Shown here: positions 1 through 31,023 of the stretch, piece after piece
Numbering within the stretch: the first letter of the stretch is position 1
Layout: every line of letters begins with the position of its first letter
Assembly (NCBI GenBank): GCA_043813255.1
Contig: JBDRLG010000126.1
Location: 2,882-66,881, forward strand
Length of the DNA stretch: 64,000 nt
Source: Candidatus Omnitrophota bacterium
Lineage (GTDB): Bacteria; Omnitrophota; Gorgyraeia; Gygaellales; Profunditerraquicolaceae
Reading direction: 5' to 3'
Notes under the pieces: generated by a model
Told to the model about the DNA's origin: nothing
Database searches by the model: none
The model's input: only the letters and a program-made list of their open reading frames with translations
Program-made: the position numbers and the translations under genes

Positions 1-882
1 TTTCCAAAGGCGCGAATAAACTGCGCGATAATAGATCGCATATTATCATGAATATCGCGGCAGCTATGCAGGATATAGGAATTAAAATCCTGTGATTTGG
101 CCCTACAATCAGGCGCATAATATGGGGAATAATTAGTCCTACAAAACCAATTACTCCTGATATACATACAATACTCGCGGTAATTAAAGATGTAGCAAAA
201 AATAAGATTTTTTTTACTGTTTCAGTATTTATGCCCAAATGAACAGCTTCTTCTTCTCCTATGCTTATCGCGTTTAAATCTTGAGAGAATATATATATTA
301 TAGTAATTCCAACAAAGACAATTACACTTACAATAAGAATAAGGCGCAGGTCATATACCTGAAGGCTTCCCCATAACCACCATGTTATACTGTGCAGGGT
401 TTCACTATTGGATATAGAAATCAGGAAAATAAGTAATCCTGACAGCGCTATTGAGATTACTACCCCGGAAAGAATAAGCGACTGCGCAGGGACTTTGTTT
501 GCCTGCCGCGATATATTATATACTAAGATAATGGTTAATATCGCGCCTGTAAATGCCGCTAATGGAAGATAAATAGTAAATATCCCTGTTAATATCGCTA
601 TTAGCGCGCCTAAACCCGCGCCGCTTGAAATTCCCAATAAATAAGGTTCAGCAAGGGGGTTTCTTAGAATTGCCTGCAGGGCTATCCCTGATACAGTTAA
701 TCCGCTGCCTACTACTATTGCTAAAAAAACACGCAGGATTCTTAAAGATAGGATATTTCGGTTGTTTTCACGCAGTAATTCTGCTATTGGAATATTACAG
801 GAGCCGTTAATTACTCCTATAAAAATGGCAATAAGTAATAATATTATTAGTATAAAGATTTTAATCGTAAAACTTCTATTCA
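1..882 (-). CDS. ABC transporter permease, FecCD/BtuC family (partial; C-terminus lies beyond window start)
   Basis: Minus-strand ORF absent from the track because it runs off the edge. My own translation from the ATG at 880-882 gives MNRSFTIKIFILIILLLIAIF...LLGISSGAGLGALIAIL... with about 8 predicted TM segments, typical of FecCD permeases. Its start overlaps the stop of the upstream binding-protein gene by 7 nt (operon coupling). Confidence 0.75.
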
Positions 883-1766
883 TTTTTTTCTTTTGGCGGT
901 TTCTTTGGATACAGCCGGGCGTGTATTTGTTTTAAGCCCTCTGTTAATCTCGGGCCCGGCCTTAAAAATAAGTCGGTATTTATATCGTTGTAAATCCGGT
1001 TATTTCTTACCGCTGGTATATTTTCCCATCCAAAACGGCCGGCAATTAATTTTATAGGCGTTTCTTTTTGCATGTAGCCGATAATAATACAGTCGGGTTT
1101 GCGTTCTATTACTGTTTCGGCGTTAAAGGAACTGTAAGTCTTTTTGGTATCATAGGCGATATTAATTCCTCCTGCTAAGGTAATTAATTCATTAATAAAA
1201 GAATTTTTTCCGGCGGCCATTAAAGGTTTGTTCCATATTTCCACAAACACTTTTGGCCTTGATTCCTCAGGAATATTTTTTATTGATGAATTGACTGTTT
1301 CAATATCATTTTGCATTTTTTGTATAAGTATTTCAGCATTTTTTTGTTTATTTGTAAGAGAACCAATTTCTCGTATAGATTCAAATAATTCTTTAATATT
1401 AGCAGGGGCATTGATATAAACCGAGAGTTTCAATTCTTTTAATTTTTGGGCAATAACAGATTGTTTAAGCCCTGTGCAAAAAATCAGGTCTGGTTTTAAG
1501 AAGATGATTTTTTCTATATCAGGACAGCTGAATGTCCCTATTTTTTCTTTATGCTTTGTTTGTTGGGGATAATTACAGAGTGAACTTATCCCTATAATTT
1601 CTTTCTCTAACCCAAGAGCAAATAATATTTCCGTGGTAGAAGGAGCAAGAGAAATTATCCTTAAACTTTCAGTAATCGGCTGGTTTTTATAATCCGCATA
1701 CGCCTGTTTAACCTGAGAACAAAGAAGTGAAAAAATAACAATAAAAATGTATTTTTTTGATAGCAT
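876..1766 (-). CDS. ABC transporter periplasmic substrate-binding protein, BtuF/FhuD class (cobalamin/siderophore type)
   Basis: 296 aa with an N-terminal signal peptide. The motif ISLAPSTTEILFALGL is typical of the BtuF/FhuD cluster-A binding-protein fold. It sits immediately downstream of a cobalamin riboswitch and upstream of the FecCD permease. Confidence 0.8.
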   Translation of the reverse strand: MLSKKYIFIVIFSLLCSQVKQAYADYKNQPITESLRIISLAPSTTEILFALGLEKEIIGISSLCNYPQQTKHKEKIGTFSCPDIEKIIFLKPDLIFCTGLKQSVIAQKLKELKLSVYINAPANIKELFESIREIGSLTNKQKNAEILIQKMQNDIETVNSSIKNIPEESRPKVFVEIWNKPLMAAGKNSFINELITLAGGINIAYDTKKTYSSFNAETVIERKPDCIIIGYMQKETPIKLIAGRFGWENIPAVRNNRIYNDINTDLFLRPGPRLTEGLKQIHARLYPKKPPKEKNE

Positions 1767-1779
1767 AGTAAATTGTATT

Positions 1780-2100
1780 TTACCCCGATGTCGCTTCCCG
1801 ATGCTTCGATCGGGACAGGTCGCTCTTCGGGGTCAAGTAAAATCCTTACGGATTTTCCTTGAAAATAAAAACCCCGATTATAGTACTTTTACAGCACTAT
1901 CTTCGGGGTTGCACCCTGTTTAAACTATGGCCCTTTCCGCGCGGAAATATTTATATAGGTTTGAGGTATTCTGACTTAAGGTTTCTATCTACTTACCGCG
2001 CCTTCCCGCCTTTTGGGCAGTGGCTTTATTTACGGCTTTCGTCTTCCTTTACAGCAGCGGGAACTGTGTCCGATTTCAACGGCCTTCCCTAAACCTATTA
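1780..2100 (-). promoter_or_regulatory. Cobalamin (B12) riboswitch with terminator-like expression platform, leader of the btuF-like/permease operon
   Basis: The reverse complement of 1985-2095 reads GGGAAGGCCGTTGAAATCGGACACAGTTCCCGCTGCTGTAAAGGAAGACGAAAGCCG...AAGCCACTGCCCAAAAGGCGGGAAGGCG. This matches the conserved cobalamin aptamer core block-for-block (compare the E. coli btuB leader: GGGAATCCAGTGCGAATCTGG...GCAGCGGTAAGGAAAGG...ACACTGCCATTCGGTGGGAAG). Downstream on the minus strand (~1905-1850) a GC stem CCCCGAAGATAGTGCTGTAAAAGTACTATAATCGGGG followed by TTTTTATTTT looks like an intrinsic terminator. A second hairpin lies just before the start codon at 1766. Confidence 0.8.
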
Positions 2101-2164
2101 TATAATTGTTTTGTATAAAGCTAATAATAATTCTAAATTTTTAGTTTGTCAAGGAAAATCCGCT

Positions 2165-2668
2165 TTAATACTCAATCCCTTTTCTTGCTTTTAAATTCTT
2201 ATTATAATAATGCTTTTTGTCTTCTATATAGCTTACCAAATCAGCGGATTTAATGATTTTATCATGAGCGTGGCGGCCGGTTAAGACCATTTCTGTTTTT
2301 TTAGGGGTACTTTTGATAATATCTAAAACATCATTTAGTTCTATGAGCTTAAAATGTAACGCCACATTGATTTCATCAAGAATTATTAAGTCATAGCGGT
2401 TATCTAAAATCGCTTTTCTTACTTTCTCCAGCCCTTTATTGGCTGATTCCATGTCTTTTTTGTTGGGTTTACGGTTAATGAAACATCCTCTGCCAAATTG
2501 TTCAATTGTTATATTTTTAATTTTTTTTAATATTTTTATTTCGCTGTAACAGCCTTTTTTTATGAATTGTCCTATATACACTTTCAAACCCGCGCCAGCC
2601 GCCCTTAAAGCCAGCCCTAAGCTTGCTGTTGTTTTGCCTTTCCCATTACCCGTGTATACTTGTATCAT
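2165..2668 (-). CDS. cobO: Cob(I)alamin adenosyltransferase, CobA/CobO/BtuR type
   Basis: 167 aa. The N-terminal P-loop-like motif YTGNGKGKTTASLGLALRAAGAG is followed by DEINVALHFKL...VLTGRHA, which is characteristic of the BtuR/CobO family. Size is typical. Confidence 0.8.
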   Translation of the reverse strand: MIQVYTGNGKGKTTASLGLALRAAGAGLKVYIGQFIKKGCYSEIKILKKIKNITIEQFGRGCFINRKPNKKDMESANKGLEKVRKAILDNRYDLIILDEINVALHFKLIELNDVLDIIKSTPKKTEMVLTGRHAHDKIIKSADLVSYIEDKKHYYNKNLKARKGIEY

Positions 2669-5471: not shown

Positions 5472-6621
5472 TAGATAAATTTATAAGATATTTCGCGATA
5501 TCAAAACTTGCATTGGGTTTACTGATTTTTTCAGCGGAATCCGCGAGATGGCTTAATTTTTCTCTGTGTAATAATAAATCTTCAATTACAAGATTTACTT
5601 TTTTCGGGTCGTCAATCTTTATAGCCGCTTGTTTTTCTATCAAATACGCGGTATTGCTTGTTTCTTGTCCGGGAATAGGCTTAACGATTATCATGGGTAA
5701 TTTTTTACTAAGGGCTTCAGCAGAAGTGATCCCGCCGGGTTTAGTAATTATAATATCAGAAATAGCCATAAATTCTTCGATTTTATTGGAGTATCCAAAA
5801 GGGATAATCTTTTTTTTGCTTTTTTTTGCTTTCTTTTTTAAAGCTTTAAAAAGTTTTTTATTAGTGCCTGTTACAATGATTTCTTGAATATTTAAGGACA
5901 TTTTTTCCAGGGAGTTGACAATTGTTTTAATCGGCCCCAGGCCCTGTCCGCCTCCCATTATTAAAATAGTAAGTATTTGAGGGTTTAGTCCTAATTGTTT
6001 AAGGATTGTTCCTTTTGGAATAACGTTATTGAATTTAGGATCAAAAGGTATCCCTAAAGAAAGCACTTTTTGAGGCTCTACGCCTTTGTTTATCAGGCGC
6101 TGGGATATTTCTTCTGAAGGTGTTATATAGTAATCAACTGTATTATAAACCCAGTAAGAATGGGGAATATAATCAGTAAGTATTCCCACAAGTGGAATCT
6201 TGCAATTAGAGGATCTTTTGAAATCAGCTACCATGCCGCAGGGGAAAGCCTGGGTACAGGCTATTACATCGGGTTTATAACTGTCAAACAGTTTTTTAAG
6301 CTTAGGTGAATTAAATTTATGAACAGTATTTTTGATTCTTGTAAGTTTTTTTGCGACTTTAGGGTTATCATATAAATAATCCCATATGCCGGGGGTAGCT
6401 TTTATTATTCCAATATACAGGCGGTTTATTATTTTTTCTGAAATAGGGTTAGTGTAATTAAAAGTATTAATATTTAATACTTTAGTATCAGGAGACAATG
6501 TTTTTATCGCGTTTTCTACGGCTATAGTCGCGCTATGATGTCCGGAAACCTCAGAAATATACATTAAAATAATCCGTTTTGCTGGCATAAGTTTAAGTTT
6601 TATTTTCTTGATAGAGTTCAA
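5464..6621 (-). CDS. GT28 glycosyltransferase, MGDG synthase / UgtP-like diacylglycerol glycosyltransferase
   Basis: 385 aa. Shows the ordered blocks of the UgtP/MGD family: ILMYISEVSGHHSAT, KPDVIACTQAFP, GILTDYIPHSYW, IMGGGQGLG, ITKPGGITSAEAL and PIPGQETSNTAYL. Confidence 0.75.
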   Translation of the reverse strand: MNSIKKIKLKLMPAKRIILMYISEVSGHHSATIAVENAIKTLSPDTKVLNINTFNYTNPISEKIINRLYIGIIKATPGIWDYLYDNPKVAKKLTRIKNTVHKFNSPKLKKLFDSYKPDVIACTQAFPCGMVADFKRSSNCKIPLVGILTDYIPHSYWVYNTVDYYITPSEEISQRLINKGVEPQKVLSLGIPFDPKFNNVIPKGTILKQLGLNPQILTILIMGGGQGLGPIKTIVNSLEKMSLNIQEIIVTGTNKKLFKALKKKAKKSKKKIIPFGYSNKIEEFMAISDIIITKPGGITSAEALSKKLPMIIVKPIPGQETSNTAYLIEKQAAIKIDDPKKVNLVIEDLLLHREKLSHLADSAEKISKPNASFDIAKYLINLSND

Positions 6622-7756
6622 GGAAGGCTGAAACTACTTCTGGATTAAGTTGTTTGCCGTTGATCTCTTTAATTTGTTCAATAGCTTGTTCTTTAGAGAA
6701 GCCGTTACGGTATGGCCTGTCTGTAGTCATTGCGTCATAAGTATCTGCTACTGATATTATTGAAGCTATGAGAGGTATTTCATTGCCTTTTAGCCCTTCG
6801 GGATAACCAGAACCATCATAGTGCTCATGGTGGTATTTAACTCCCAAGATAGCATTTTTTAATTCTTTTATTGGTTGTAAAATCATTGCCCCTAATAAAG
6901 GGTGTTCTTGCATTTTAGCGCGTTCTGTATCAGTTAAAGGGCCTTGTTTATTTAATATAGATTCAGGAATTCCAATTTTTCCTATATCATGCAGTAATCC
7001 CGCTATATGAAGCTGTTCAAAAAAACTTTCGTTGAATATTTTTTCATTAGTTTGATAAAGTCTTTTGGCAATTTCTAAACTTAAAGATGTTACCCTTTCT
7101 GTATGCCCATGCGTGTAATGGTCTTTTGCGTCAATTGCCGCTGCCAGAGCTATAGTAGTATTAATAAAAAGATGTTGTTTTTTTTTCAGTTCCAGTTCTA
7201 ATTCATTAAAAAGCTGCGCGTTCTTTATCGCCATAGCTACGTCAGAAGCAAGGGCAGCAAAAAAATTCAGTTCATCTTCTTTGAAGTCTTTTGAATTTTT
7301 TTTCTTGCCAATCAGCAGAAGAGCTAAAAGATTATTCCTGTAATAACTGGGAATACATGCCACTGTATCAAAAATTTTCATCTGATGCAAAGCTTCGCTT
7401 AATACTTCCTTAGTTTCGTTATCAAAATTTTTGCGTAAAATCCTTTTTGCGTTGCTATAGAGTAAATAACTATTATTTAAAATCAGGTTATTATTTTTAT
7501 CCTGAAAGAGTTTAATAAGGGCATTATCTGTATCCATGCGGGCAAATCCCTGAGGTATTTTTAACCCGGCAGGGCCGCGGGAAACAGTTAATACATAGGA
7601 ATCTTTAATTGTATCATAGAGCAGTATACCAGCATGGCTTATTTTTACTTTTTGAATGAGCATGCGGATAATCAGTTTAATCAAAGTATCTGAATTATGT
7701 ACTAAGATCATTCTTTTAGCTGCTATTTCAAGCTCTTTTTTATAATTTAATGCCAT
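6593..7756 (-). CDS. GAF domain-containing HD-GYP phosphodiesterase (c-di-GMP signalling)
   Basis: 387 aa. The N-terminal half is GAF-like. The C-terminal half carries the HD-GYP motifs HTERVTSLSLEIA, GLLHDIGKIGIP, HHEHYDGSGYPEGLKG and VADTYDAMTTDRPYR. Confidence 0.85.
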   Translation of the reverse strand: MALNYKKELEIAAKRMILVHNSDTLIKLIIRMLIQKVKISHAGILLYDTIKDSYVLTVSRGPAGLKIPQGFARMDTDNALIKLFQDKNNNLILNNSYLLYSNAKRILRKNFDNETKEVLSEALHQMKIFDTVACIPSYYRNNLLALLLIGKKKNSKDFKEDELNFFAALASDVAMAIKNAQLFNELELELKKKQHLFINTTIALAAAIDAKDHYTHGHTERVTSLSLEIAKRLYQTNEKIFNESFFEQLHIAGLLHDIGKIGIPESILNKQGPLTDTERAKMQEHPLLGAMILQPIKELKNAILGVKYHHEHYDGSGYPEGLKGNEIPLIASIISVADTYDAMTTDRPYRNGFSKEQAIEQIKEINGKQLNPEVVSAFLELYQENKT

Positions 7757-7771
7757 GTTAAAGATAAAAGA

Positions 7772-8137
7772 TTAATTGGTTATTTGGGATAGTACTATTT
7801 TTTCTAATTCGTCCAGTTCTAGAGGTTTATGAATATAGTCGAGAGCCCCCAATTCTTTGCATTTGATAAAGGCATTTTCTTCTTCAGGTTTTCTGCCAGT
7901 TACCATAATGACTTTTATTTCATTGCTTTTTTGTTTTATCTGGCGTAAGGTTTCAATCCCATCAATTCCTTCCATTTTTATATCTAGTAAGACTAGTTGA
8001 GGTATTTCTTTTTCAATCAGGTTTAACGCTTCTTCTCCGCTAGACGCGGTTGTCACGCTGATTTTTCTTTTTTTAAAATAATTCGCGGCGAATTCCCTGA
8101 TATCTACTTCATCATCAACTATTAATAGTTTAGTCAT
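7772..8137 (-). CDS. Response regulator receiver domain protein (CheY-like, stand-alone)
   Basis: 121 aa. Contains LLIVDDEVDIREF with phospho-acceptor Asp context LLDIKMEGIDGIETL. No output domain. Confidence 0.85.
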   Translation of the reverse strand: MTKLLIVDDEVDIREFAANYFKKRKISVTTASSGEEALNLIEKEIPQLVLLDIKMEGIDGIETLRQIKQKSNEIKVIMVTGRKPEEENAFIKCKELGALDYIHKPLELDELEKIVLSQITN

Positions 8138-8192: not shown

Positions 8193-10088
8193 TTATTCAT
8201 AAGAGAGGCTGATCCTGAAAGTTTCTTCATCTTTTTCAAAATTTGGCAGCAACGGGAAAGGGGAAGCTTTTTTGATGCTTGTTACCGCGATTTCATCTAA
8301 ATTTTTATTATTTGAAGATAAAATATAGGGTTCATTTTTTAAATTCCCATTTTGGTTTAACGTGAAAGCTATGGTAGATTCTCCTTTTACAGACTCACCA
8401 GCTTTAATCAAATTAATGAATTGGGTTTTAATTTTATTAAAAATTATTGTTTTATAATCCTGAACAATAGTATTATTGAAAGTATCATTTTTTAATCGAT
8501 TAAATGATTCTTTTTGAATATTGTTTATGTCTTTGTCTTCTGTATTGCTATTATATTCTAAAGGTTCTTCACCTGTAATAATATGCGGGGTTATAAAAAT
8601 AACTAATTCTGTTTTTGAGGATTCACTTTTTACATTCCCAAATAGAGCCCCTAAATATGGGATATCTCCTAGAATAGGTATTCTTTGTGTTTCTTTGATA
8701 GTTTTATCTTTTTTAAGCCCGGCCATCATTATTGTTGTTCCGTCTTTAATCATAATAGTGCTCTCACTTTCTGATGTCGTAACAATAGGAATTTGAGTAT
8801 GCTGATCCTGCGAAGTAATCTCTTTTTGTTCAGATGAACTTATTTCAGGCCGAATTTTTATAGTGATAAAATTATCACGGTTAATAGTTGGTGTTACATA
8901 AAGTTTTATGCCCACATCAACAAAATTAACTGCTTGTGAAGTAACTGTTGTCCCTGTCCCCCCCTGAGAAGTTGTAGAAGTTATGTATGCTTCTTTTGTC
9001 CCGACTAATATTTTTGCTTCCTGATTGTTTAGAACCATAATCCGCGGGCTGGAGAGTATTTTTGTCTGTCCTATTACTCTAAGGGCTTCTACTACTGATT
9101 TGTATTGCCCTTGTTTATCTACTGCCGCATCTGGATCTGTTGCCGCAAGCCCAAAGGCTAATGAGTTGGCTATAGGAGCAGTAGCGCTGGTAAGCGCTGG
9201 AGCGGGCAAACTGCTGATTATACGGGTATTTTTTCTTATCCACCAATTCCAGTCTATCCCCATAGAAAATTCATCTTTTTTAGGAGAGACTTCTACTATT
9301 TGAGCGTCTATTAATACTTGCGGGGTTTTTTCATCGAAAGCAGCGATAATTTTTTCTATTTTAGCAATATTTTCAGGATAATCAGTTATTGCTACTTTAT
9401 TAGTCCTTTCATCAATTCTTATAGAACCAATGCCTTTTGTTATGGATTGCTGGAGTTTCTCATTGATTTTTTCCGCCTGAGCGTAATTCAGGCTAAATAC
9501 TTTACTTTCTAAAGGCCGGTCTAATTCTGAAATTAGTTCCGCTATACTTTTTAATTTTTCCGGTATATCTAAGATGATTACTGTATTTGTAGGTTCGTCA
9601 ACTACTACCCTGCCAATACTGGATTTCATTTGATTTAAAGCCTGAGATAATACTGTTGCTTTGGCATATTTTAGCGTAATATTCAAGATTTCTTTTTTAT
9701 CACCAAATTTATCGCCATAAGTCAACTCATAATCACGGGAAGTCATAATATTTACAATATCGCCTTTTATATCATAAGCAAGGTCATTTGCCGCTATAAT
9801 AATTTGAAAAGCATCGCTAATATTTACATCTTTTAAGAAAAGCGTAACTCTGCCAGTAACATTTTTTCCTATGACAACATTCATTCCTGAGCGGGTTGCC
9901 AGGATTTTTAACACATCGATTATATCCATCCCTTTTACATCGAGGGATATTTTTTCCTGGTTATTTAATATAGGGATAATAGTTGTTTCTGAAGGGCCAG
10001 CAAGAATTTCTTTTTCCGGGATAAATAACGGGATAGATAGTAATAAAAACAAAAAAACTGACAGAAAAAAAGATGATTTTTTTTTCAT
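8193..10088 (-). CDS. Secretin (GspD/PilQ family) with C-terminal TonB-C-like domain
   Basis: The secretin signature is RIPILGDIPYLGALFGNVKSESSKTELVIFITPHII. I place the start at MKKKSSFFLSVFLFLLL (ATG 10088), which has an RBS AAGGGGA and a signal peptide, rather than the track start 10154. The C-terminal ~120 aa (GESTIAFTLNQNGNLKNEPYILSSNNKNLDEIAVTSIKKASPFPLLP) resemble TonB C-terminal domain consensus. Confidence 0.8.
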   Translation of the reverse strand: MKKKSSFFLSVFLFLLLSIPLFIPEKEILAGPSETTIIPILNNQEKISLDVKGMDIIDVLKILATRSGMNVVIGKNVTGRVTLFLKDVNISDAFQIIIAANDLAYDIKGDIVNIMTSRDYELTYGDKFGDKKEILNITLKYAKATVLSQALNQMKSSIGRVVVDEPTNTVIILDIPEKLKSIAELISELDRPLESKVFSLNYAQAEKINEKLQQSITKGIGSIRIDERTNKVAITDYPENIAKIEKIIAAFDEKTPQVLIDAQIVEVSPKKDEFSMGIDWNWWIRKNTRIISSLPAPALTSATAPIANSLAFGLAATDPDAAVDKQGQYKSVVEALRVIGQTKILSSPRIMVLNNQEAKILVGTKEAYITSTTSQGGTGTTVTSQAVNFVDVGIKLYVTPTINRDNFITIKIRPEISSSEQKEITSQDQHTQIPIVTTSESESTIMIKDGTTIMMAGLKKDKTIKETQRIPILGDIPYLGALFGNVKSESSKTELVIFITPHIITGEEPLEYNSNTEDKDINNIQKESFNRLKNDTFNNTIVQDYKTIIFNKIKTQFINLIKAGESVKGESTIAFTLNQNGNLKNEPYILSSNNKNLDEIAVTSIKKASPFPLLPNFEKDEETFRISLSYE

Positions 10089-10125
10089 GCTAATCCCCTT
10101 TTTTGTCCTAAATGTATATTTGGTT

Positions 10126-10782
10126 TTATAAATAAAGTTCATATTTTTGTCCATTATTAGTTAGAACAATTTTACCTTCTTGTATATCAGTTATTTCATA
10201 TTCTTCTATAAACTGGCCTTTTTGCAGATAATATGTCTTTTGGGCTTTTTTGTCTTCAATAATAGCTTGTGGGTTTTCCCCTGCAATTATTCCTACTAAA
10301 TTAAGATTCTTTAATAAATCACTGGTTACTGCCGCGCTAGCCTTGTTTTCTTTAGCAGCAACCGGGCTATTGAAAATCTGGCGGTTCCCGGTTTCTTCCA
10401 AATAAAATTCCAAAGAAGGTGCTTCTTTTCTTTCTTGGGCCTTTTCTTCTTGTTGTGTCTTCTCTGATGAAACTATAACAGGCGTTTTGAATGTTTTAAC
10501 TAAAAACAGTGAATATACTAAAGAGTATATTAAATATATTAAAGATAATACTACTATAAATATGATTATATTACGAAGTGAGAATATAGTCAAATATTTA
10601 GCTTTAAAATCCAGTACAGTTATTTTTTTTACGGATTTTTTATCTATAATAGGAATTTCTGAAGATAAAACAGTATTTTTTTCTGAAGAAGAAACTTGTT
10701 TTGAAGAAGTTGCAATATTACGGTTTTTAGGAGTTTTTATTAAATGCAACAGCCTTTCTTCAGGAGAAATATCGTCTTTCAT
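10126..10782 (-). CDS. Secretin-associated bitopic membrane protein (GspB/GspC/PilP-like)
   Basis: 218 aa with a single TM helix. The C-terminal beta-rich segment NLVGIIAGENPQAIIEDKKAQKTYYLQKGQFIEEYEITDIQEGKIVLTNNGQKYEL resembles PilP/GspC HR domains. It lies between the ExeA-like ATPase and the secretin. Confidence 0.35.
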   Translation of the reverse strand: MKDDISPEERLLHLIKTPKNRNIATSSKQVSSSEKNTVLSSEIPIIDKKSVKKITVLDFKAKYLTIFSLRNIIIFIVVLSLIYLIYSLVYSLFLVKTFKTPVIVSSEKTQQEEKAQERKEAPSLEFYLEETGNRQIFNSPVAAKENKASAAVTSDLLKNLNLVGIIAGENPQAIIEDKKAQKTYYLQKGQFIEEYEITDIQEGKIVLTNNGQKYELYL

Positions 10783-11597
10783 AGAATTAAATCCCGTTGT
10801 ATTACATCTGTAATTATTTTTTCATCTATTGTTTGAGTGTCATTCATTATAAGTGTTTCTAACGCGTTATGACAAAGCATAGTTATCCGCCTAGGGCATC
10901 CGCTGCTATATTTATAAATCATTTTTATAGCATCTTCCATAAAAATTGAAGTTTGGTTTTTAAACCCTGCCTGTTTTAATCTGAATTCAATTAGTTGTTT
11001 TGTTTCATTTTCATCAAGAGGCGTAATAACATACTTTGCAGCAATACGGTCTAAAAAATTTCTTATTTTTTTTATACGAGGCACCAGTTCCAATTGCGCC
11101 ATAATCACTAATTGCAATAATTTATGTTCATTTGTTTCATAATTAAGCAGCATTCTGAGTATTTCCAGGTTTTCAGAAGATATTTTTTGGCCTTCATCAA
11201 CTATTAAAACAACAGTTTTATTCTCTTCTATAGCTTTTTGAAATAAATATTTTTCAATAGCCTCTTTGAAATCTAAACTTGATCTGGATTTAGGGGGAAT
11301 ATTAAATATTTTTACTAAATGGAGTAGAAATTGGAGTTCAGTTTTATGTCCGGCATCAAGTAAAAGATGCAGCACGAAATCATCTTCACCTTCAAATGTT
11401 TTTAATAATGCCCGTGAAAGAGTGGTTTTCCCTGTTCCAACATCACCTAAAACAAGGCATAATCCTCTGCGTAGACGGATAGCTATTTCAAGACGCTTAA
11501 GAATAGTGCCATGAGTATTAGAGCGGTATAGGAAATTAGGGTCAGGGCTGGTAGAGAACGGTTCTTTTTCTAAGCCTATAGTTTTATAATAACTCAT
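10779..11597 (-). CDS. ExeA/GspA-like AAA+ ATPase (secretin assembly factor)
   Basis: 272 aa. Walker A GDVGTGKTT and Walker B LIVDEGQ are present. The architecture is ExeA-like and the gene is next to a secretin. Confidence 0.75.
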   Translation of the reverse strand: MSYYKTIGLEKEPFSTSPDPNFLYRSNTHGTILKRLEIAIRLRRGLCLVLGDVGTGKTTLSRALLKTFEGEDDFVLHLLLDAGHKTELQFLLHLVKIFNIPPKSRSSLDFKEAIEKYLFQKAIEENKTVVLIVDEGQKISSENLEILRMLLNYETNEHKLLQLVIMAQLELVPRIKKIRNFLDRIAAKYVITPLDENETKQLIEFRLKQAGFKNQTSIFMEDAIKMIYKYSSGCPRRITMLCHNALETLIMNDTQTIDEKIITDVIQRDLIL

Positions 11598-20337: not shown

Positions 20338-21324
20338 TTAAAGAAGGTTGATTTTTATTATATTAAGGATAGTATCCAGGTTAAATTGAAATAAATAATT
20401 AAGTTCGATAAAAGATGCGCACCAGCATTCTTTGCAAGTAATATAATTTAATTTGTCAAAAGAATTTTTAAAACCAAGTTCTATAACATTAGGAACGTTC
20501 TTAGAAATTATAAAATTTCGGCCACAACCATACATATCTCCATTTGGTTGCAGCCGGCATATAATTAAGCTATTCACGCATTTGATTTTTGTAGGATTCG
20601 GCCAATTATAAAGATATTTTAATCCTGTAATAGAATTAACTATATAGTTATTCTTTTTTTTCTCTAAAATAAGATTATTAATTGTTCTTTTGTAGTCAGT
20701 TTCTTCAGAAATAACCGGATTCATTTCTAATCCTGCAAGTGTACGTAATCTCGCGGGTTGGAAACTAACAGGAATTTTAAACTCTTTTGCTTTATTTAAA
20801 ATAAATTCAATTTTATCAAGATTAAATTTAGATAAAACAGTATTAAACCTGAGTTTTAGTTTTTTCTTCTTAGCTATTTCTACGGCTTCCATTATATTAT
20901 TGTACGAGCCGTTTCCTCGTATAAAATCATGAATTTTCTCCGGCCCATCAAAACTTAAAGTTAATAGATCAAGTCCGGTTAGTTGGTTAATTTTTTCTTT
21001 TACGAGTGAACCGTTAGAATTTATGTCGATTACCACATTATTTTTTTTTGCATGTTCAATGATTGTTCCTATATCATCTCTTAAAAGGGGATTTCCTCCT
21101 GTGAGATGCAGTACCTGTGTACCCGACTGTTTCATCTCAGTTATTAAAGATAAAATTTTCTCTGTTTCCATTTCAGTCGTTTTCATTTTCCAGCTATCGC
21201 AATATAAACACCTTTGATTGCATCTATATGTCAGCAACCAGCTAACAATTACGGGAGATCTCTTCTTTAATAAATTTGCTTCTAATAGTTTAAATGCTAT
21301 TGATATTTTTTTAGTTGTTTTCAT
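20338..21324 (-). CDS. Radical SAM protein with SPASM/twitch domain (member of 4-paralog family)
   Basis: 328 aa. LLTYRCNQRCLYCDSW is followed by a C-terminal Cys cluster CVNSLIICRLQPNGDMYGC...CKECWC. It is paralogous to 24603, 42527 and 46017 (shared LTGGNPLLRDDIG / SFDGPE..HDFIRG blocks). Confidence 0.85.
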   Translation of the reverse strand: MKTTKKISIAFKLLEANLLKKRSPVIVSWLLTYRCNQRCLYCDSWKMKTTEMETEKILSLITEMKQSGTQVLHLTGGNPLLRDDIGTIIEHAKKNNVVIDINSNGSLVKEKINQLTGLDLLTLSFDGPEKIHDFIRGNGSYNNIMEAVEIAKKKKLKLRFNTVLSKFNLDKIEFILNKAKEFKIPVSFQPARLRTLAGLEMNPVISEETDYKRTINNLILEKKKNNYIVNSITGLKYLYNWPNPTKIKCVNSLIICRLQPNGDMYGCGRNFIISKNVPNVIELGFKNSFDKLNYITCKECWCASFIELNYLFQFNLDTILNIIKINLL

Positions 21325-23353
21325 TATTTTTTTTTATATATATAGCTAAATTAAGTATGTTTCTTTGATTTTCGCTAAGAGAATGCATCCTAAGGTAGTT
21401 ATTTTTTTTAATTCTATCAAGCTTTTTGAATTCTTTTAATTCAGTATTTTTAAAATGGAAATGTTCAGATGCGTATTTATAGTTAATTTTAGCGATATTA
21501 TTGAATTGTGATAAGGCTTGCTCAGGCATCCCTTTAATTAAATAAAGAGTTGCTAAATTTAGATGTGCGATAATGCAATTATGGTTAAGTTTTGTAGCGT
21601 CATTATAACTGCCAATAGCGGCAGATACATTGAAACCTTCGCCAAATCTTAAATAATCTTTATTATGTTCATAAAGATAGCCAAGAAAAAGATTTGAAAT
21701 ATATAAAAATATTTTGTCTTTAGTTAATCCAAGGGTTTTTTTAAGTTCTGCGATTGCTTTATTTTTAAAATCCATATTTGGATATTCAACTGCCAATTTG
21801 TTATAAAAAAAGGCGAGCAAAAAATGTTTCCAGTCATAATTATTGTTTAGATTATTAAGTCTTTGGATAATCCGAGGCACATAATTCTTGTCTATATTAT
21901 CTATTTCTAAAACATCTAAAATTTCTTTTATTTCTTTGTTTTGATTAAATGTTTTATATCTATTTAGGACTTCATCAGGGGCATCAAAACTAAAACAAGT
22001 AGTTAAAATATATAAAATATGAATTATTGTTTCATTTCTTTTTTCTTTTGTCAGATAATCTTCTATAGTATCAATATAGAACCCTTTTATGTCATAATCA
22101 GTGATACGCAGGATTGATTCTATCATCTGGATATCTAAAGTTTTTGGTGAATATACATATAAAGGCTCCATTTCAAAAAAATTTTCAGGTGTTATACCGT
22201 TTTCTATGGGTTTTATTTGATATAAGAATAAATATAACGCTAATTTCTCATTAAGGTTGATAAATTTTCTTTTAAAACTATTAATTATTTGTTTGAACTT
22301 AGCTATATTATTTAAATAATAACAGTCTGGAAATCCAAATTCTTTTATAGTGTTTCTAACAGTTGGCGATATTATAACTTGTATATCTTTTTGAGAATTT
22401 AATGTTTTCCAGTTTAATAATTTTCTTTTTTCTTTTTTTATGTCATTCTTTAACTTTTTACATATTTTAAGTAAATAATTGTCTTTGGCCTTTCGCGGTT
22501 TAGACGGCCATTTTAATCTACAGTTTCTTAAGCTGGATAAATATCGATAATATTGCTCAAAATTATACATTAAATTGTCTTTTCTTTCAATTAATAAATC
22601 TTTGTATTCAGCGCAGATAGATAGTGTTTTGAAACATCCATTATCTATATTTCGGATGTAGTTTATTAATTCAAAACTTTCGGCAAAATCAACAGGTATG
22701 TTTTTATTAATGTAGGCTTCCCAGAAACTACTATAATAATTCTCTTTATTTTTCGTGTTAAAGTCATTAATTAAGGTTTCATTTATATATTTAGATGAAA
22801 AAATATTATATTTATTAATACTAATAATCTTATCTTTGGTCAGCAAAAATTGGCTTGGGTCACATTCAAATATTTCTTCATCTGCAATCAGCCAATCAAT
22901 TATCTGCTGTTTTTGGATATAATTAATCTGTTTTTTGGAAAGGTTATTTATGCTAATAGTTGCTAAACTGTTCAGGGAAGGAATAAATTCTTGTATGATC
23001 CCTCTCTCTTTTTTTCCATTGACCGGTAACGTTATTTCATAGCATAAAGGCACTTTTTGTCCGCACAAGGATAACAGTTTGTATGTTTGGTCTAAGTTTG
23101 TATTTGATTTGCCGATTTTAAAGAACCACAATCTTTCATCTTCGCTCTTAAGTATGAATTTTGCGTTTTGTCCGCTCAGCATAGGTTGTTTATCAATTAA
23201 TGTGAAAGTCAATTTTTTAAATATTTTATCAGACAGGGATTTTTTTTCTAAAATTAAATTAATTGCTTCTTTTTCAAGCTGGGAATTGTCAATCCTATTA
23301 CAGCCAAAATTAGAAAACATAAGAATTAATATAAGTATTTGGATAATTTTCAT
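21311..23353 (-). CDS. Secreted/lipoprotein-like large hypothetical protein (possible atypical kinase-like N-domain, TPR-like C-terminus)
   Basis: 680 aa with a signal peptide ending ...FSNFGC. The segment GQNAKFILKSEDERLWFFKIGKS...IIQEFIP...IIDWLIADEEIF is reminiscent of protein-kinase-like folds (PI4K-II/CotH-type). This is a weak call by eye. Confidence 0.35.
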   Translation of the reverse strand: MKIIQILILILMFSNFGCNRIDNSQLEKEAINLILEKKSLSDKIFKKLTFTLIDKQPMLSGQNAKFILKSEDERLWFFKIGKSNTNLDQTYKLLSLCGQKVPLCYEITLPVNGKKERGIIQEFIPSLNSLATISINNLSKKQINYIQKQQIIDWLIADEEIFECDPSQFLLTKDKIISINKYNIFSSKYINETLINDFNTKNKENYYSSFWEAYINKNIPVDFAESFELINYIRNIDNGCFKTLSICAEYKDLLIERKDNLMYNFEQYYRYLSSLRNCRLKWPSKPRKAKDNYLLKICKKLKNDIKKEKRKLLNWKTLNSQKDIQVIISPTVRNTIKEFGFPDCYYLNNIAKFKQIINSFKRKFINLNEKLALYLFLYQIKPIENGITPENFFEMEPLYVYSPKTLDIQMIESILRITDYDIKGFYIDTIEDYLTKEKRNETIIHILYILTTCFSFDAPDEVLNRYKTFNQNKEIKEILDVLEIDNIDKNYVPRIIQRLNNLNNNYDWKHFLLAFFYNKLAVEYPNMDFKNKAIAELKKTLGLTKDKIFLYISNLFLGYLYEHNKDYLRFGEGFNVSAAIGSYNDATKLNHNCIIAHLNLATLYLIKGMPEQALSQFNNIAKINYKYASEHFHFKNTELKEFKKLDRIKKNNYLRMHSLSENQRNILNLAIYIKKNNENN

Positions 23354-29152: not shown

Positions 29153-31023
29153 TATTTCATAAAAACTTTATGCCATGTTAAAAATGTATATATTGTCCAT
29201 AGCTTACGGCTGTTGTCGAATTTATTGTTAAGGTGGTCTTTTATTAATTGCTTGATATAATAAGGGTTAAAATATTTTGTTTTAATAGTATTTTGTTCCG
29301 ATAACACATCTAATATTATATTTTTCTTTTTCTGCCTTATCCAGATTTTATCCGGGCTGCTTAAGCCATGTTTGGATTTTTTAAGTATTTTTTGAGGTAA
29401 TTTTCCCCGCATCGCTTTTCTTAATATATATTTTGTTTTAAAGTTCTTAATTTTCATTTCCGCGGGAATCGCTGCCGCAAACTCCACTAAATCTGAATCT
29501 AAATACGGAGTTCTTACTCTAAAAGAATTCATTTTGTTTAATGAGTTTTCAAAAAATAATATATTATCAGCCAGGTTAATTTTTAAGTCATTATGCAAAG
29601 CAGCATCCAGCCCGTAATTGTTTTTAAATTTATTTTCAGCTATTTTATTTTTATAATTTAAAAAAGAATCTTTAAATATCCTGTCTTCCAATAAGGTATT
29701 TTTTAAAAGTTCTTTCTTGTCTTCTTCCGTGAATATTTCTCTCCAATGGTAATGCACCCTTTCCGCAGGAAGAGTTGAGCCGTAAATAAAGTCACGGATT
29801 TTATAATTAAGGCTGATCGGTTTATAAGAATCAGGTATTAATTGTGTTAAAGGAGAAACAATGTATTTTTTTAAAAAATCAGGTATATTTTTATAAAGCG
29901 GAATCAGGATATCTGCCAGATGAGTAAGATATCCTGCGAAAAGTTCATCTCCTCCTTCCCCTGAAAAAGATATGTCCACCTCTCTGCTTGTATAATTGAC
30001 TAGAAAATAATAAGGAATAATCGTAGATTCAGAAATGATATCTCCTAAATTCCAAATAATATCCTCATAGGAACTAAGCGGATTATCCGGCAATATGTAA
30101 TGACGATGTTTGGTATTATAATGTTTGGAGACAATTCCTGCATATTTTGTTTCATCGTAATATTTTTCTTTAAATCCGATACTAAAAGTATTTATTTGAG
30201 ATTTATACATTTCAGCTATGGTATGAGCGATACTGCTTGAATCTAATCCTCCGCTTAAAAAAAGGCCCCAAGGGCGGCTGTTGGGCAGCCTTCTCTTTAC
30301 AGCTTTGCATATTAAATCCAGCGAATTTTCTATGTAATATTCTTCTGAAAATGTTTTATTCTGATAATTAAAGTTATTCTGCCAGTATTCTTTTGTCTGT
30401 ACGCCGGCATTCGATATGGTTGCTAAATATCCTGGAGGAAGTTTATTGATATTATTAAATATTGTTTTAGGAGAAGGTACATAACCGAAAGATAAATAAT
30501 CATAAAAACTATTGACGTCCATTGTTTTTGAGTATTCTTTGTCTTGTAAGATGGCTTTTATATCAGAAGAAAAAATAATGCTGTTTTTACAGACAGCATA
30601 ATAAATTTGTTTTACTCCCAGTTTATCCCGGACCAAAGTTAAAATTCTCTTGTTATTATCCCAGATAGCCAGGGAAAATATGCCGTCTAATTTATTGAAA
30701 TTTTCAGTCCCTTCTTCATATAAATGTATAATAATTTCCATATCTGAGAAACTTTTAAAAGTATGGCCTTTTTTAACAAGGTTTTCTTTCAGCTCAGCAT
30801 GGTTGTAAATTTCACCTTCAGCGGCTAAATAAACAGAATTATTTTCATTATGTAAAAGTTCAGCGTTAATAGAATTGTATAAGCATAAGCCGATATTATT
30901 TTTAACAAGGACGTTTCTATCATGGTAACTATTTTTCAATTTTAATTTTTCAGACATATCTAAAAAAGATTCTTTGACAAGTTTTTGTTTAGGATCAAGG
31001 TTATATTTTCCATAAATCAGCAT
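29152..31023 (-). CDS. Asparagine synthetase B-family amidotransferase lacking the N-terminal catalytic cysteine
   Basis: 623 aa. The synthetase-domain PP-loop is FLSGGLDSSSIA. The glutaminase-domain blocks AAEGEIYNHAELKENL and LDGIFSLAIWD..LVRDKLGVKQIYYA are present. However the N-terminus is MLIYGKY rather than MCG(I), with a GGAGA RBS 8 nt upstream of this ATG, so the class-II GATase nucleophile Cys is absent. Confidence 0.8.
   Translation of the reverse strand: MLIYGKYNLDPKQKLVKESFLDMSEKLKLKNSYHDRNVLVKNNIGLCLYNSINAELLHNENNSVYLAAEGEIYNHAELKENLVKKGHTFKSFSDMEIIIHLYEEGTENFNKLDGIFSLAIWDNNKRILTLVRDKLGVKQIYYAVCKNSIIFSSDIKAILQDKEYSKTMDVNSFYDYLSFGYVPSPKTIFNNINKLPPGYLATISNAGVQTKEYWQNNFNYQNKTFSEEYYIENSLDLICKAVKRRLPNSRPWGLFLSGGLDSSSIAHTIAEMYKSQINTFSIGFKEKYYDETKYAGIVSKHYNTKHRHYILPDNPLSSYEDIIWNLGDIISESTIIPYYFLVNYTSREVDISFSGEGGDELFAGYLTHLADILIPLYKNIPDFLKKYIVSPLTQLIPDSYKPISLNYKIRDFIYGSTLPAERVHYHWREIFTEEDKKELLKNTLLEDRIFKDSFLNYKNKIAENKFKNNYGLDAALHNDLKINLADNILFFENSLNKMNSFRVRTPYLDSDLVEFAAAIPAEMKIKNFKTKYILRKAMRGKLPQKILKKSKHGLSSPDKIWIRQKKKNIILDVLSEQNTIKTKYFNPYYIKQLIKDHLNNKFDNSRKLWTIYTFLTWHKVFMK

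What the first reader, a model, noticed from the sequence alone, without database searches (positions are those of the whole stretch)
8193..10088. Secretin with a C-terminal TonB-C-like domain
After the canonical secretin domain (RIPILGDIPYLGALFGNVKS...ITPHII) the protein continues for ~130 aa. The segment GESTIAFTLNQNGNLKNEPYILSSNNKNLDEIAVTSIKKASPFPLLP closely resembles the TonB C-terminal domain consensus (G-V-V-F-I---G-V-----SSG---LD-AA--AV-K---F-P-P).

Secretin C-terminal extensions are normally pilotin-binding S-domains. A TonB-C-type domain would be unusual and could mediate peptidoglycan contact or contact with a partner outer-membrane protein. This would fit with the adjacent ExeA-like peptidoglycan-binding assembly ATPase.
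Basis: partly seen in the sequence, partly recalled or inferred. Interest (0 to 1): 0.5.

Follow-up and report, generated by a model that had tools for sequence, protein, structure and literature searches.

The report
Secretin fused to a TonB/TolA-type domain
This outer-membrane secretion pore from an uncultured Omnitrophota bacterium really does end in a domain borrowed from TonB, and most of its relatives in that phylum do too, which points to an undescribed way of docking such pores in the cell envelope.

Summary
The gene at 8193-10088 (- strand, 631 aa) encodes a complete secretin: signal peptide, N0/STN, two Secretin_N domains and the secretin core. A 127-aa tail follows.

The last ~90 residues of the tail are a real TolA/TonB C-terminal domain (CTD):
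- Pfam TonB_2 scores above its gathering cut-off.
- NCBIfam tonB_Cterm scores above its cut-off.
- A family profile hits the TonB CTD structures 6sly/5lw8 at E~1e-6.

The fusion is conserved, not a one-off. 71 of 80 species-level Omnitrophota loci carry it, usually at the end of a T2SS-like operon. One variant has three tandem CTDs. The closest paralogue is the phylum's own membrane-anchored TonB, encoded next to a TonB-dependent receptor.

The neighbouring ATPase is a 272-aa AAA_22-only protein (MshM-like) with no peptidoglycan-binding domain.

The domain lacks TonB's membrane anchor and rod, so it cannot transduce energy. The most likely role is a passive periplasmic docking module that works by beta-strand addition and sits where the pilotin-binding S-domain usually is. 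This role is inferred, and the partner is unknown.

I found no paper describing it. Databases mislabel some members as "energy transducer TonB". It is a new variant of a known kind, of moderate interest.

The parts
8193..10088 (-). Secretin::TonB/TolA-CTD fusion gene (631 aa plus stop). The longest ORF extends to 10154, but 10088 is the supported start.
   Evidence: P0001 is 100% identical and 631 aa; Shine-Dalgarno AAGGGG upstream of the ATG at 10088.
9999..10088 (-). Predicted cleavable signal peptide (aa 1-30, MKKKSSFFLSVFLFLLLSIPLFIPEKEILA). It has no lipobox cysteine.
   Evidence: Read directly from the sequence. The AF2 full-length model shows a helix at aa 2-16 followed by a disordered stretch.
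9741..9953 (-). N0 / STN-like domain (aa 46-116).
   Evidence: Pfam STN 27.7 bits and type_II_gspD_N0 19.8 bits, both below their cut-offs. The AF2 fold has pLDDT ~90 here.
9336..9692 (-). Two Secretin_N (N1/N3-type) domains (aa 133-251).
   Evidence: Pfam PF03958, E 6e-27, two stretches. AF2 model.
8577..9320 (-). Secretin core (aa 257-504), ending in ...VIFITPHII.
   Evidence: Pfam PF00263, E 3e-47. Foldseek matches to PulD, GspD, ExeD, InvG and PilQ at E 1e-22 to 1e-26.
8469..8576 (-). Linker (aa 505-540): the conserved motif TGEEPLEYxSxTxDKDI followed by a variable helical segment.
   Evidence: Alignment A1. The motif is kept even in relatives that lack the CTD. AF2 gives pLDDT 61-77 here.
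8196..8468 (-). TolA/TonB-type C-terminal domain (aa 541-631) with alpha-beta-beta-alpha-beta topology. Invariant residues are Y545, G569, F575, G581, P615 and F624.
10126..10782 (-). GspC-like protein (218 aa): one TM helix plus a C-terminal HR (T2SSC) domain, no PDZ. It is a conserved upstream neighbour.
   Evidence: Pfam T2SSC, E 7e-9. NCBIfam GspC models score weakly. Synteny in most of the 80 loci.
10779..11597 (-). AAA_22 ATPase (272 aa) resembling MshM or the ExeA N-terminal part. It is soluble and has no peptidoglycan-binding domain.
7772..8137 (-). Stand-alone receiver (REC) protein, a conserved downstream neighbour.
   Evidence: Pfam Response_reg, E 4e-30. Synteny.
6593..7756 (-). 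HD-GYP (HD_5) protein with a weak GAF-like N-terminus, a conserved downstream neighbour.
   Evidence: Pfam HD_5, E 8e-39. Synteny.

Best explanation
**What the gene is.** It encodes the outer-membrane secretin of an Omnitrophota type II secretion-like machine. The partner genes are an MshE-type ATPase, GspF, GspG/J/K-like pseudopilins, a PilM-PilN fusion, a GspM/PilO-like protein, an AAA_22 ATPase and a GspC-like protein. In many relatives these lie directly upstream; in this genome only the last two do.

**What is attached.** After the secretin core and a short conserved linker comes one copy of a TolA/TonB domain-III fold. It was most likely duplicated from the phylum's own TonB.

**What it cannot do.** The domain hangs on the C-terminus of an outer-membrane protein. 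It lacks the TonB/TolA membrane helix and periplasm-spanning rod, so it cannot be an energy transducer.

**Inferred mechanism.** Secretins typically assemble with C13-C15 symmetry, so about 13-15 copies would hang from the periplasmic outer wall of the barrel, where the S-domain of T2SS/T3SS secretins sits. There the domain acts as a passive docking module. It would capture an extended strand (a TonB-box-like or TolB-box-like peptide) of another envelope protein by beta-strand addition. This would tether or position the secretin, or help assemble it, in place of the S-domain/pilotin, AMIN or GspA/B-type anchors.

**Shown versus inferred.**
- Shown: domain identity, conservation, genomic context and origin.
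- Inferred: periplasmic location, the beta-addition binding mode, the anchoring role and the identity of the partner.
For: **Domain identity.**

**Conservation.**
- All 119 full-length top homologues keep a 123-173 aa tail.
- 71 of 80 GTDB species-level loci encode the CTD, 68 of them in frame and 3 split by a stop or frameshift.
- Mean column identity is 39% across the tail alignment, with six invariant positions. This indicates purifying selection.

**The domain behaves as a module.**
- One secretin (P0121) carries three tandem CTDs.
- Omnitrophota also have proteins made of 3-5 tandem CTDs, for example P0122.
- Seven relatives lost the CTD but kept the linker, and their nearest relatives (51-72% identical in the secretin part) carry it.

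**Origin.** Stand-alone TM-anchored TonBs sit next to a Plug+barrel TonB-dependent receptor in the same syntenic block. They score 62-72 bits against the secretin-CTD HMM and are 30% identical to the window CTD over 100 aa.

**T2SS-like context.**

**Binding mode.** Beta-strand addition is the established binding mode of TolA and TonB domain III (PMC12204202).

**Position.** The S-domain of GspD packs on the outer barrel surface and binds the pilotin (PMC12531336). T2SS and T3SS secretin C-termini were not detected on the cell surface (PMC4453517).
Against: - No partner was identified.
- No conserved TonB-box-like motif exists in the secretin's own mature N-terminal tail.
- No neighbouring gene co-varies cleanly with CTD presence or absence.
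- The CTD is dispensable in some lineages.
- Location and stoichiometry are inferred from other secretins. T4P secretins have been reported to expose their C-termini on the cell surface (PMC4453517).
- The monomer AF2 model says nothing about how the domain packs in the multimer.
Confidence: 0.55

Rival explanations
1. Peptidoglycan anchor. The CTD binds the cell wall directly and fixes the secretin to it, as AMIN domains do for PilQ or as GspA/GspB do for T2SS secretins.
For: - Tandem repetition of the module, in the 3xCTD secretin P0121 and the 3-5xCTD proteins, is typical of cell-wall-binding modules.
- The neighbouring ATPase lacks the periplasmic PG-binding part that ExeA has, so a wall anchor in cis would fill a gap.
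- PG anchoring of secretins is a known theme (PMC10653833; title and abstract of PMC9239104).
Against: - None of the sequence or fold searches returned a PG-binding family for the tail, whether LysM, AMIN, OmpA_C, SPOR or PG_binding_1.
- The recent TonB review read here assigns PG binding to ExbD, not to the TonB CTD (PMC11658791).
- The established ligand type of this fold is a peptide strand (PMC12204202).
Confidence: 0.15
2. Built-in clamp or chaperone. The CTD binds a strand of the same or a neighbouring secretin subunit, either the conserved linker or an unfolded barrel strand. It would then act as an in-cis pilotin or S-domain analogue that stabilises monomers before assembly or staples the ring.
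For: - The CTD occupies the position of the S-domain, whose helix packs on the outer barrel.
- T4aP pilotins are proposed to bind the unfolded beta-lip transiently (PMC10653833).
- The secretin is not a lipoprotein, and no pilotin-like gene was recognised among the genes flanking it that were scanned.
- A conserved linker motif lies directly upstream of the CTD.
Against: - The linker stays conserved in relatives that have lost the CTD, so it is not maintained as a CTD ligand.
- The same CTD type occurs in many non-secretin proteins.
- CTD-less secretins apparently persist as intact genes.
Confidence: 0.2
3. Coupling to the Ton system. The secretin CTDs either bind the TonB boxes of TonB-dependent receptors or pair with the CTD of the membrane-anchored TonB. 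Secretion, gating or localisation would then be linked to the proton-motive-force-driven Ton motor.
For: - The closest paralogue is a bona fide TonB, with a TM helix carrying an S..H motif, encoded next to a TBDT whose TonB box reads DPIVVTPT.
- That TBDT-TonB pair lies 8-10 kb downstream of the secretin in the same syntenic block in several genomes.
- TonB_C domains in non-import machines have been proposed to pull on outer-membrane partners in the Myxococcus Glt system (bioRxiv 10.1101/2020.07.22.216333).
Against: - The secretin CTD is not itself attached to a motor.
- The TBDT-TonB pair is absent from the corresponding position in this window.
- The synteny may only reflect a conserved chromosomal neighbourhood.
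- There is no direct evidence of any interaction.
Confidence: 0.07
4. Artefact or decaying remnant. The fusion would be an assembly or gene-calling error, or a non-functional relic.
For: - A few loci show the CTD split from the secretin: L054, L059, and L079 at an A9 run.
- Some lineages lack the CTD altogether.
Against: - The in-frame fusion appears in 68 independent species-level assemblies and more than 100 protein clusters.
- The domain has invariant core residues and a confidently predicted fold.
Confidence: 0.02

Closest known systems
T2SS secretins GspD/PulD/ExeD with a C-terminal S-domain and pilotin (PulS/AspS)
   Same: - The N0 plus Secretin_N plus secretin-core architecture is shared. 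Foldseek E is 1e-23 to 1e-26 against 6hcg, 6i1x, 5zdh and 5wq8.
- There is a GspC-like HR-domain partner and a T2SS-type pseudopilin set in syntenic operons.
- Both have a C-terminal accessory segment after the barrel.
   Different: - The accessory segment is an alpha/beta TolA/TonB domain of about 90 aa, not a two-helix S-domain.
- The protein scores below the GspD equivalog cut-off, 254.8 against 351.
- It has one fewer N-domain than GspD.
- No pilotin gene was recognised nearby.
TonB and TolA C-terminal domains (domain III; Pfam PF03544/PF13103/PF06519)
   Same: - Profile matches are found.
- The sequence motifs closely match the Omnitrophota stand-alone TonB: YxxxIxxKI..., GxVxxxFxL, ASPFPxFP.
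   Different: - There is no N-terminal TM helix with an SHLS motif and no Pro/Glu-rich rod.
- The domain is attached to the C-terminus of an outer-membrane protein.
- It therefore cannot couple to ExbBD or TolQR in the canonical way.
PilQ AMIN domains, TsaP (LysM) and GspA/GspB (ExeA/ExeB, OutB): envelope anchors of secretins
   Same: They are accessory modules or partners that position or anchor a secretin in the envelope. Module number varies, as with 1-3 AMIN domains, compared with 0, 1 or 3 CTDs here.
   Different: - The fold is different.
- The CTD is at the C-terminus rather than the N-terminus.
- The ligand of the CTD is unknown.
- The local AAA_22 ATPase lacks ExeA's PG-binding domain.
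MSHA-pilus MshL secretin with MshM ATPase
   Same: An AAA_22 MshM-like ATPase is encoded next to the secretin, and an MshEN-type assembly ATPase occurs in syntenic operons. JGI labels some homologues MshL.
   Different: The protein scores below the MshL equivalog cut-off, 191.8 against 250.2. The pseudopilin set is GspG/J/K-like and a GspC-like protein is present. Whether MshL proteins carry such a CTD was not examined here.
Myxococcus GltG/GltJ (TonB_C domains in a non-import envelope machine)
   Same: This is a precedent for TonB_C domains being reused in a motility or secretion apparatus to contact outer-membrane partners.
   Different: GltG and GltJ are inner-membrane, motor-associated proteins. 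Here the domain is on the outer-membrane component.

Membership tests
Secretin superfamily (Pfam PF00263) | C-terminal secretin core domain | tested here: met
   PF00263 scores E 3.2e-47, 160.7 bits against a cut-off of 27.5. Foldseek matches solved secretins at E<=1e-22.
Secretin superfamily (Pfam PF00263) | Periplasmic N0 and N-domains, and a signal peptide | tested here: met
   Secretin_N is found twice (94 bits). STN/N0 is just below its cut-off, but the fold is predicted with pLDDT ~90. The signal peptide is seen in the sequence.
Secretin superfamily (Pfam PF00263) | 12-15-mer gated outer-membrane channel | not testable with these tools
   Only monomer prediction was available.
GspD equivalog (TIGR02517) | Score at or above the curated cut-off of 351.35 | tested here: not met
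   254.8 bits.
PilQ subfamily (TIGR02515) | Score at or above the curated cut-off of 284.35 | tested here: not met
   265.1 bits. No AMIN domain was found.
MshL equivalog (TIGR02519) | Score at or above the curated cut-off of 250.2 | tested here: not met
   191.8 bits.
TolA/TonB C-terminal domain (PF13103 TonB_2) | Profile score at or above the gathering cut-off of 22 | tested here: met
   25.5 bits in the full protein and 29.3 bits on the tail, covering profile positions 2-82 of 85.
TolA/TonB C-terminal domain (PF03544 TonB_C) | Profile score at or above the gathering cut-off of 24.6 | tested here: not met
   21.6-23.8 bits for this protein. However, 35 of 38 homologous tails match at E<=0.01, with a best E of 7e-10, and TIGR01352 is passed on the tail at 29.3 against 27.1.
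TolA/TonB C-terminal domain (fold) | Alpha-beta-beta-alpha-beta domain-III fold | tested here: met
   [not shown]
TonB / TolA energy transducer (the label NCBI gives some homologues) | N-terminal inner-membrane helix with an SHLS motif that binds ExbBD or TolQR | tested here: not met
   The N-terminus is a cleavable signal peptide followed by the secretin N0 domain. The stand-alone Omnitrophota TonB does have such a helix.
TonB / TolA energy transducer | Periplasm-spanning Pro-rich or helical domain II | tested here: not met
   Only a ~36-aa linker separates the secretin core from the CTD.
TonB / TolA energy transducer | Binds a TonB box or TolB box by beta-strand addition | not testable with these tools
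   This needs binding assays or multimer modelling.
S-domain secretins (pilotin-dependent) | C-terminal two-helix S-domain that binds a lipoprotein pilotin | tested here: inconclusive
   The tail is a TolA/TonB fold, not a helix-turn-helix. The short conserved linker could still pack on the barrel. No pilotin gene was recognised nearby, but pilotins are poorly conserved.
ExeA/GspA (neighbouring gene 10779-11597) | AAA+ ATPase plus a TM segment plus a periplasmic PG_binding_1 domain | tested here: not met
   Only AAA-type hits were found in 272 aa. There is no PG-binding hit at E<=1 and no hydrophobic segment.

The most novel reading that the evidence does not exclude
The ring of about 13-15 TonB-type domains per secretin (three times as many in the triple-CTD variant) is an active interface rather than a static anchor. 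One possibility is that it captures the TonB boxes of TonB-dependent receptors or other outer-membrane proteins, or pairs with the membrane-anchored TonB. The T2SS-like pore would then be physically coupled to the proton-motive-force-driven Ton machinery, giving energised gating or assembly. The other possibility follows from reports that T4P secretin C-termini are surface-exposed: the domains would lie outside the cell and bind host or prey structures of these epibiotic nanobacteria.
Probability: 0.1. Interest if true: 0.8.

Novelty: new variant of a known kind. Interest (0 to 1): 0.45.

Why it matters
Nearly everything known about how secretins are targeted, assembled and anchored comes from Proteobacteria: S-domain plus pilotin, AMIN domains, TsaP, GspA/B. 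Here a whole uncultured phylum has replaced the usual C-terminal element with a strand-capturing domain copied from TonB.

If the domain docks the pore to another envelope component, that would be a fourth, unrelated solution to the secretin anchoring problem. It would also give a handle for finding the partners of T2SS-like machines in Omnitrophota. Those machines are repeatedly found next to the giant putative effector genes of these host-dependent nanobacteria (bioRxiv 10.64898/2026.06.07.730766).

There is also a practical point. Some members are named 'energy transducer TonB' or 'TonB family protein' in public databases. That label is wrong for a secretin and can distort metabolic reconstructions that count Ton systems.

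Tried and rejected
1. **TonB box in the secretin's own N-terminal tail.** I looked for a conserved TonB-box-like strand there; the window has ETTIIPI. The tail is variable and low-complexity across 120 homologues, so I rejected this.
2. **ExeA-type peptidoglycan-binding neighbour.** Rejected, because the protein has only an AAA_22 domain.
3. **A second CTD or stand-alone TonB elsewhere in the 64-kb window.** None was found.
4. **Co-variation of CTD loss with loss of AAA_22, GspC-like or other neighbours.** No clean pattern emerged.
5. **Similarity of the secretin's conserved IPIVTTSE strand to the TBDT TonB box DPIVVTPT.** To my knowledge related motifs occur in secretins generally, and the strand would be buried in the assembled core. 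I treat the similarity as coincidental. This was not tested.
6. **Searches that failed.**
   - The search for related loci with the CTD-only alignment found no stretch conserved enough to search with.
   - The exact window protein is not on record in the contig index.
   - The afdb50 fold library was unavailable, so the fusion could not be surveyed in UniProt/AFDB across phyla.
7. **Literature.** Searches for a described secretin-TonB/TolA fusion found nothing relevant. The 2025 MBE survey of TolA/TonB evolution mentions neither secretins nor Omnitrophota.
Full report
**1. What is in the sequence**

A 653-codon ORF lies on the minus strand at 8193-10154.
- An AAGGGG Shine-Dalgarno sits 7-10 nt upstream.
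- A typical signal peptide, MKKKSSFFLSVFLFLLLSIPLF..., begins there.
- The upstream gene's stop is at 10126.
- The identical database protein P0001 ('MAG: secretin N-terminal domain-containing protein [Candidatus Omnitrophota bacterium]') is 631 aa.

The tail after ...VIFITPHII is 127 aa.

**2. Is the tail a TonB-type domain?**

Yes.
- In the whole protein, Pfam finds Secretin (E 3e-47), two Secretin_N domains, a sub-threshold STN/N0, TonB_2 PF13103 (25.5 bits, cut-off 22) and TonB_C PF03544 (21.6 bits, cut-off 24.6).
- On the tail alone, TonB_2 reaches 29.3 bits (E 9e-7, profile positions 2-82 of 85) and TonB_C reaches 23.8 bits.
- NCBIfam tonB_Cterm TIGR01352 reaches 29.3 bits on the tail (cut-off 27.1). 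The C-terminus of the TolA model reaches 22 bits.
- Of 38 aligned homologous tails (A1), 35 hit both Pfam models at E<=0.01.
- The A1 profile finds the solved H. pylori TonB CTD (6sly, 5lw8) at E 1-2e-6 and HasB at 7e-4.
- An AlphaFold2 model of the tail is confident over the domain (10-residue-block mean pLDDT 89-97). Its topology is helix, two strands, helix, strand.

One refinement is needed: the best-fitting model is TonB_2, and the fold is as close to TolA-III as to TonB.

**3. The fusion is a conserved family trait**

- The homologue search returned more than 100 clusters at 50-86% identity, nearly all 600-690 aa. Source names, where given, were mostly Omnitrophota, and many hits carried precomputed TonB_C/TonB_2 domains.
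- All 119 full-length hits keep a 123-173 aa tail.
- A scan of one genome per GTDB species found 229 relatives. The 80 retained loci are almost all titled Omnitrophota. A few carry other MAG labels, which I take as labelling or binning noise; I did not verify this.
- An HMM of the tail finds the CTD in 71 of the 80 loci. It is in frame in 68 and split by a stop or frameshift in L054, L059 and L079. The L079 split lies at an A9 homopolymer.
- Of the nine loci without a CTD, one is cut by a contig end. Seven have short tails of 16-43 aa, six of which keep the conserved linker motif. One has an unrelated acidic tail.
- The CTD-less genes' closest relatives, 51-72% identical in the secretin part, carry the CTD. 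This indicates repeated secondary loss.
- The tail alignment averages 39% column identity against 51% for the whole protein. It has six invariant positions (window Y545, G569, F575, G581, P615, F624).

**4. Context**

In the window the gene order on the minus strand is AAA_22 ATPase (10779-11597), GspC-like protein (10126-10782), the secretin, REC (7772-8137) and HD-GYP (6593-7756).

In most relatives the same block is preceded by a fuller operon: an MshEN-type GspE ATPase, GspF, GspG, minor pseudopilins including a T2SSJ-type, a GspK-like protein, a PilM-PilN fusion and a GspM/PilO-like protein. This is a T2SS-like member of the type IV filament superfamily.

In this genome a glycosyltransferase gene lies upstream of the ATPase instead, as in several other loci (for example L007 and L015). 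The inner-membrane components must therefore be encoded elsewhere.

The secretin scores below the curated cut-offs of the PilQ, GspD and MshL models. Its full-length model matches solved T2SS, T3SS and T4P secretins about equally well.

The ATPase is 272 aa and matches only AAA-type models. It has no PG_binding_1 hit and no hydrophobic segment.

**5. Where the domain came from**

In L015, L017, L036 and L085 the same syntenic block continues downstream with MGDG synthase, LpxL-like acyltransferase, GT2, PCMT, a small exporter and CobA. It ends with a TonB-dependent receptor (Plug plus barrel, TonB box DPIVVTPT) followed by a 206-250 aa TonB. That TonB has an N-terminal membrane helix carrying an S..H motif.

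A profile search of 1.8 billion cluster representatives found 924 hits at E<=1e-10. The top 150 split as follows:

| Architecture | Count |
|---|---|
| Secretin fusions (one, P0121, with three tandem CTDs) | 42 |
| Non-secretin proteins with two or more CTDs (3-5 tandem copies in those scanned with Pfam; a few carry TPR or metallopeptidase domains) | 40 |
| Single-CTD non-secretin proteins, mostly about 170-320 aa | 30 |
| Fragments or short proteins (<160 aa) | 38 |

The two named examples checked are from Omnitrophota. The CTD is therefore a reused module in this phylum.

**6. Mechanism**

Shown: a TolA/TonB domain III is covalently attached to the C-terminus of a secretin, is under selection, varies in copy number (0, 1 or 3) and derives from TonB.

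Inferred:
- (a) It cannot be an energy transducer. It lacks the membrane helix with the motor-binding motif and the periplasm-spanning rod that define TonB and TolA (PMC12204202).
- (b) It is probably periplasmic and sits on the outside of the barrel. That is where the C-terminal S-domain of T2SS and T3SS secretins lies (PMC12531336). The C-termini of those secretins were not detected on the cell surface (PMC4453517).
- (c) The established activity of this fold is to bind an extended peptide by beta-strand addition. The most likely role is therefore to dock the secretin ring, typically C13-C15, to another envelope protein. It would stand in for the S-domain/pilotin, AMIN or GspA/B-type anchors.

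The partner is unknown. I rate this reading at about 0.55.

Rival readings:
- Direct peptidoglycan binding, about 0.15. No PG-binding family was detected, and the TonB review read here assigns PG binding to ExbD.
- An in-cis clamp or chaperone acting on secretin strands, about 0.2. This is weakened because the linker stays conserved without the CTD.
- Coupling to the Ton system through TonB boxes or TonB-CTD pairing, about 0.07.
- Artefact, about 0.02.

**7. Comparison with what is known, and novelty**

The protein is a secretin by every testable criterion. Its tail is a member of the TolA/TonB CTD superfamily: it passes PF13103 and TIGR01352 and has the fold, while narrowly failing PF03544 itself. 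It is not a TonB or TolA protein. The NCBI names 'energy transducer TonB' and 'TonB family protein' given to homologues such as P0040, P0050 and P0068 mislabel what are secretins.

Full-text searches found no description of a secretin with a TonB/TolA CTD. The recent evolutionary survey of TolA/TonB mentions neither secretins nor Omnitrophota. A 2026 preprint on Omnitrophota genomes notes 'TonB C-terminal domain' hits flanking giant-protein loci rich in T2SS/T4P genes, without interpreting them. Those hits may be this family.

I classify the finding as a new variant of a known kind. The domain combination is visible to automated annotation but, as far as I could find, is undescribed and functionally unexplored.

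**8. Limits**

- The genome scan used peptide patterns specific to this clade, so fusions in other phyla would have been missed.
- The AFDB fold library was unavailable.
- Only monomer structure prediction was possible.
- No interaction was tested.

Noticed in passing
window 6593-8137 (- strand); L003 283-1998 and 11963-13507: A stand-alone receiver protein and an HD-GYP (HD_5) protein directly follow the secretin in the window and in many relatives. The assembly ATPase of the syntenic operons carries an MshEN domain. To my knowledge HD-GYP proteins are typically c-di-GMP phosphodiesterases and MshEN binds c-di-GMP. Together this suggests c-di-GMP control of the T2SS-like machine.
   Followed up: partly
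window 10779-11597 (- strand): The AAA_22 ATPase next to the GspC-like gene has as its best NCBIfam hit the XrtA/PEP-CTERM system-associated ATPase (184 bits, below the 324.5 cut-off). It lacks any TM or peptidoglycan-binding part, so it is MshM-like rather than ExeA-like.
   Followed up: partly
L086 693-3248 (protein P0121): A secretin of the same family carries three tandem TonB/TolA-type CTDs after the secretin core (851 aa).
   Followed up: partly
proteins P0122, P0125, P0139, P0140, P0169, P0261: There are non-secretin proteins built of 3-5 tandem TonB_2 domains. P0122 is an Omnitrophota 'TonB family protein'. P0169 adds TPR repeats and P0261 adds a metallopeptidase-like region. This suggests the CTD is a general binding module in this lineage.
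   Followed up: partly
L079 11729-11737 (complete chromosome CP070797.1): A run of nine A's separates the secretin reading frame from the frame that encodes the CTD. This may be a homopolymer sequencing error or a possible phase-variable switch between CTD-plus and CTD-minus secretin.
   Followed up: partly
L015 11246-14037; L085 3876-6621; compare window 876-2668: In several relatives a TonB-dependent receptor plus a bona fide TonB follow CobA in the conserved block downstream of the secretin. In the window that position holds only a Peripla_BP_2 gene (876-1766). The genes look like a cobalamin-uptake set.
   Followed up: partly
window ~11695-63685: Most of the rest of the window is one long, mostly minus-strand cluster of envelope-glycan genes. 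It includes many glycosyltransferases (one of them 1296 aa and two-domain), YfhO-like membrane proteins, asparagine synthase and carbamoyltransferase. Five ORFs of 539-704 aa have no Pfam hit at E<=1e-5: 21311-23353, 31017-33131, 37084-38970, 38945-40906 and 40915-42534.
   Followed up: no
proteins P0040, P0050, P0068, P0014, P0028, P0041: Public annotations name full-length secretins of this family 'energy transducer TonB' or 'TonB family protein' because of the C-terminal domain. These are systematic misannotations.
   Followed up: yes
L001 9178-9978: In one sub-lineage (L001, L002, L008) the gene directly upstream of the secretin is a 266-aa protein with a weak PP-binding (acyl-carrier-like) hit instead of the GspC-like gene. 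The GspC-like gene sits 6-7 kb further upstream, behind amine-oxidase and histidine-kinase genes.
   Followed up: no
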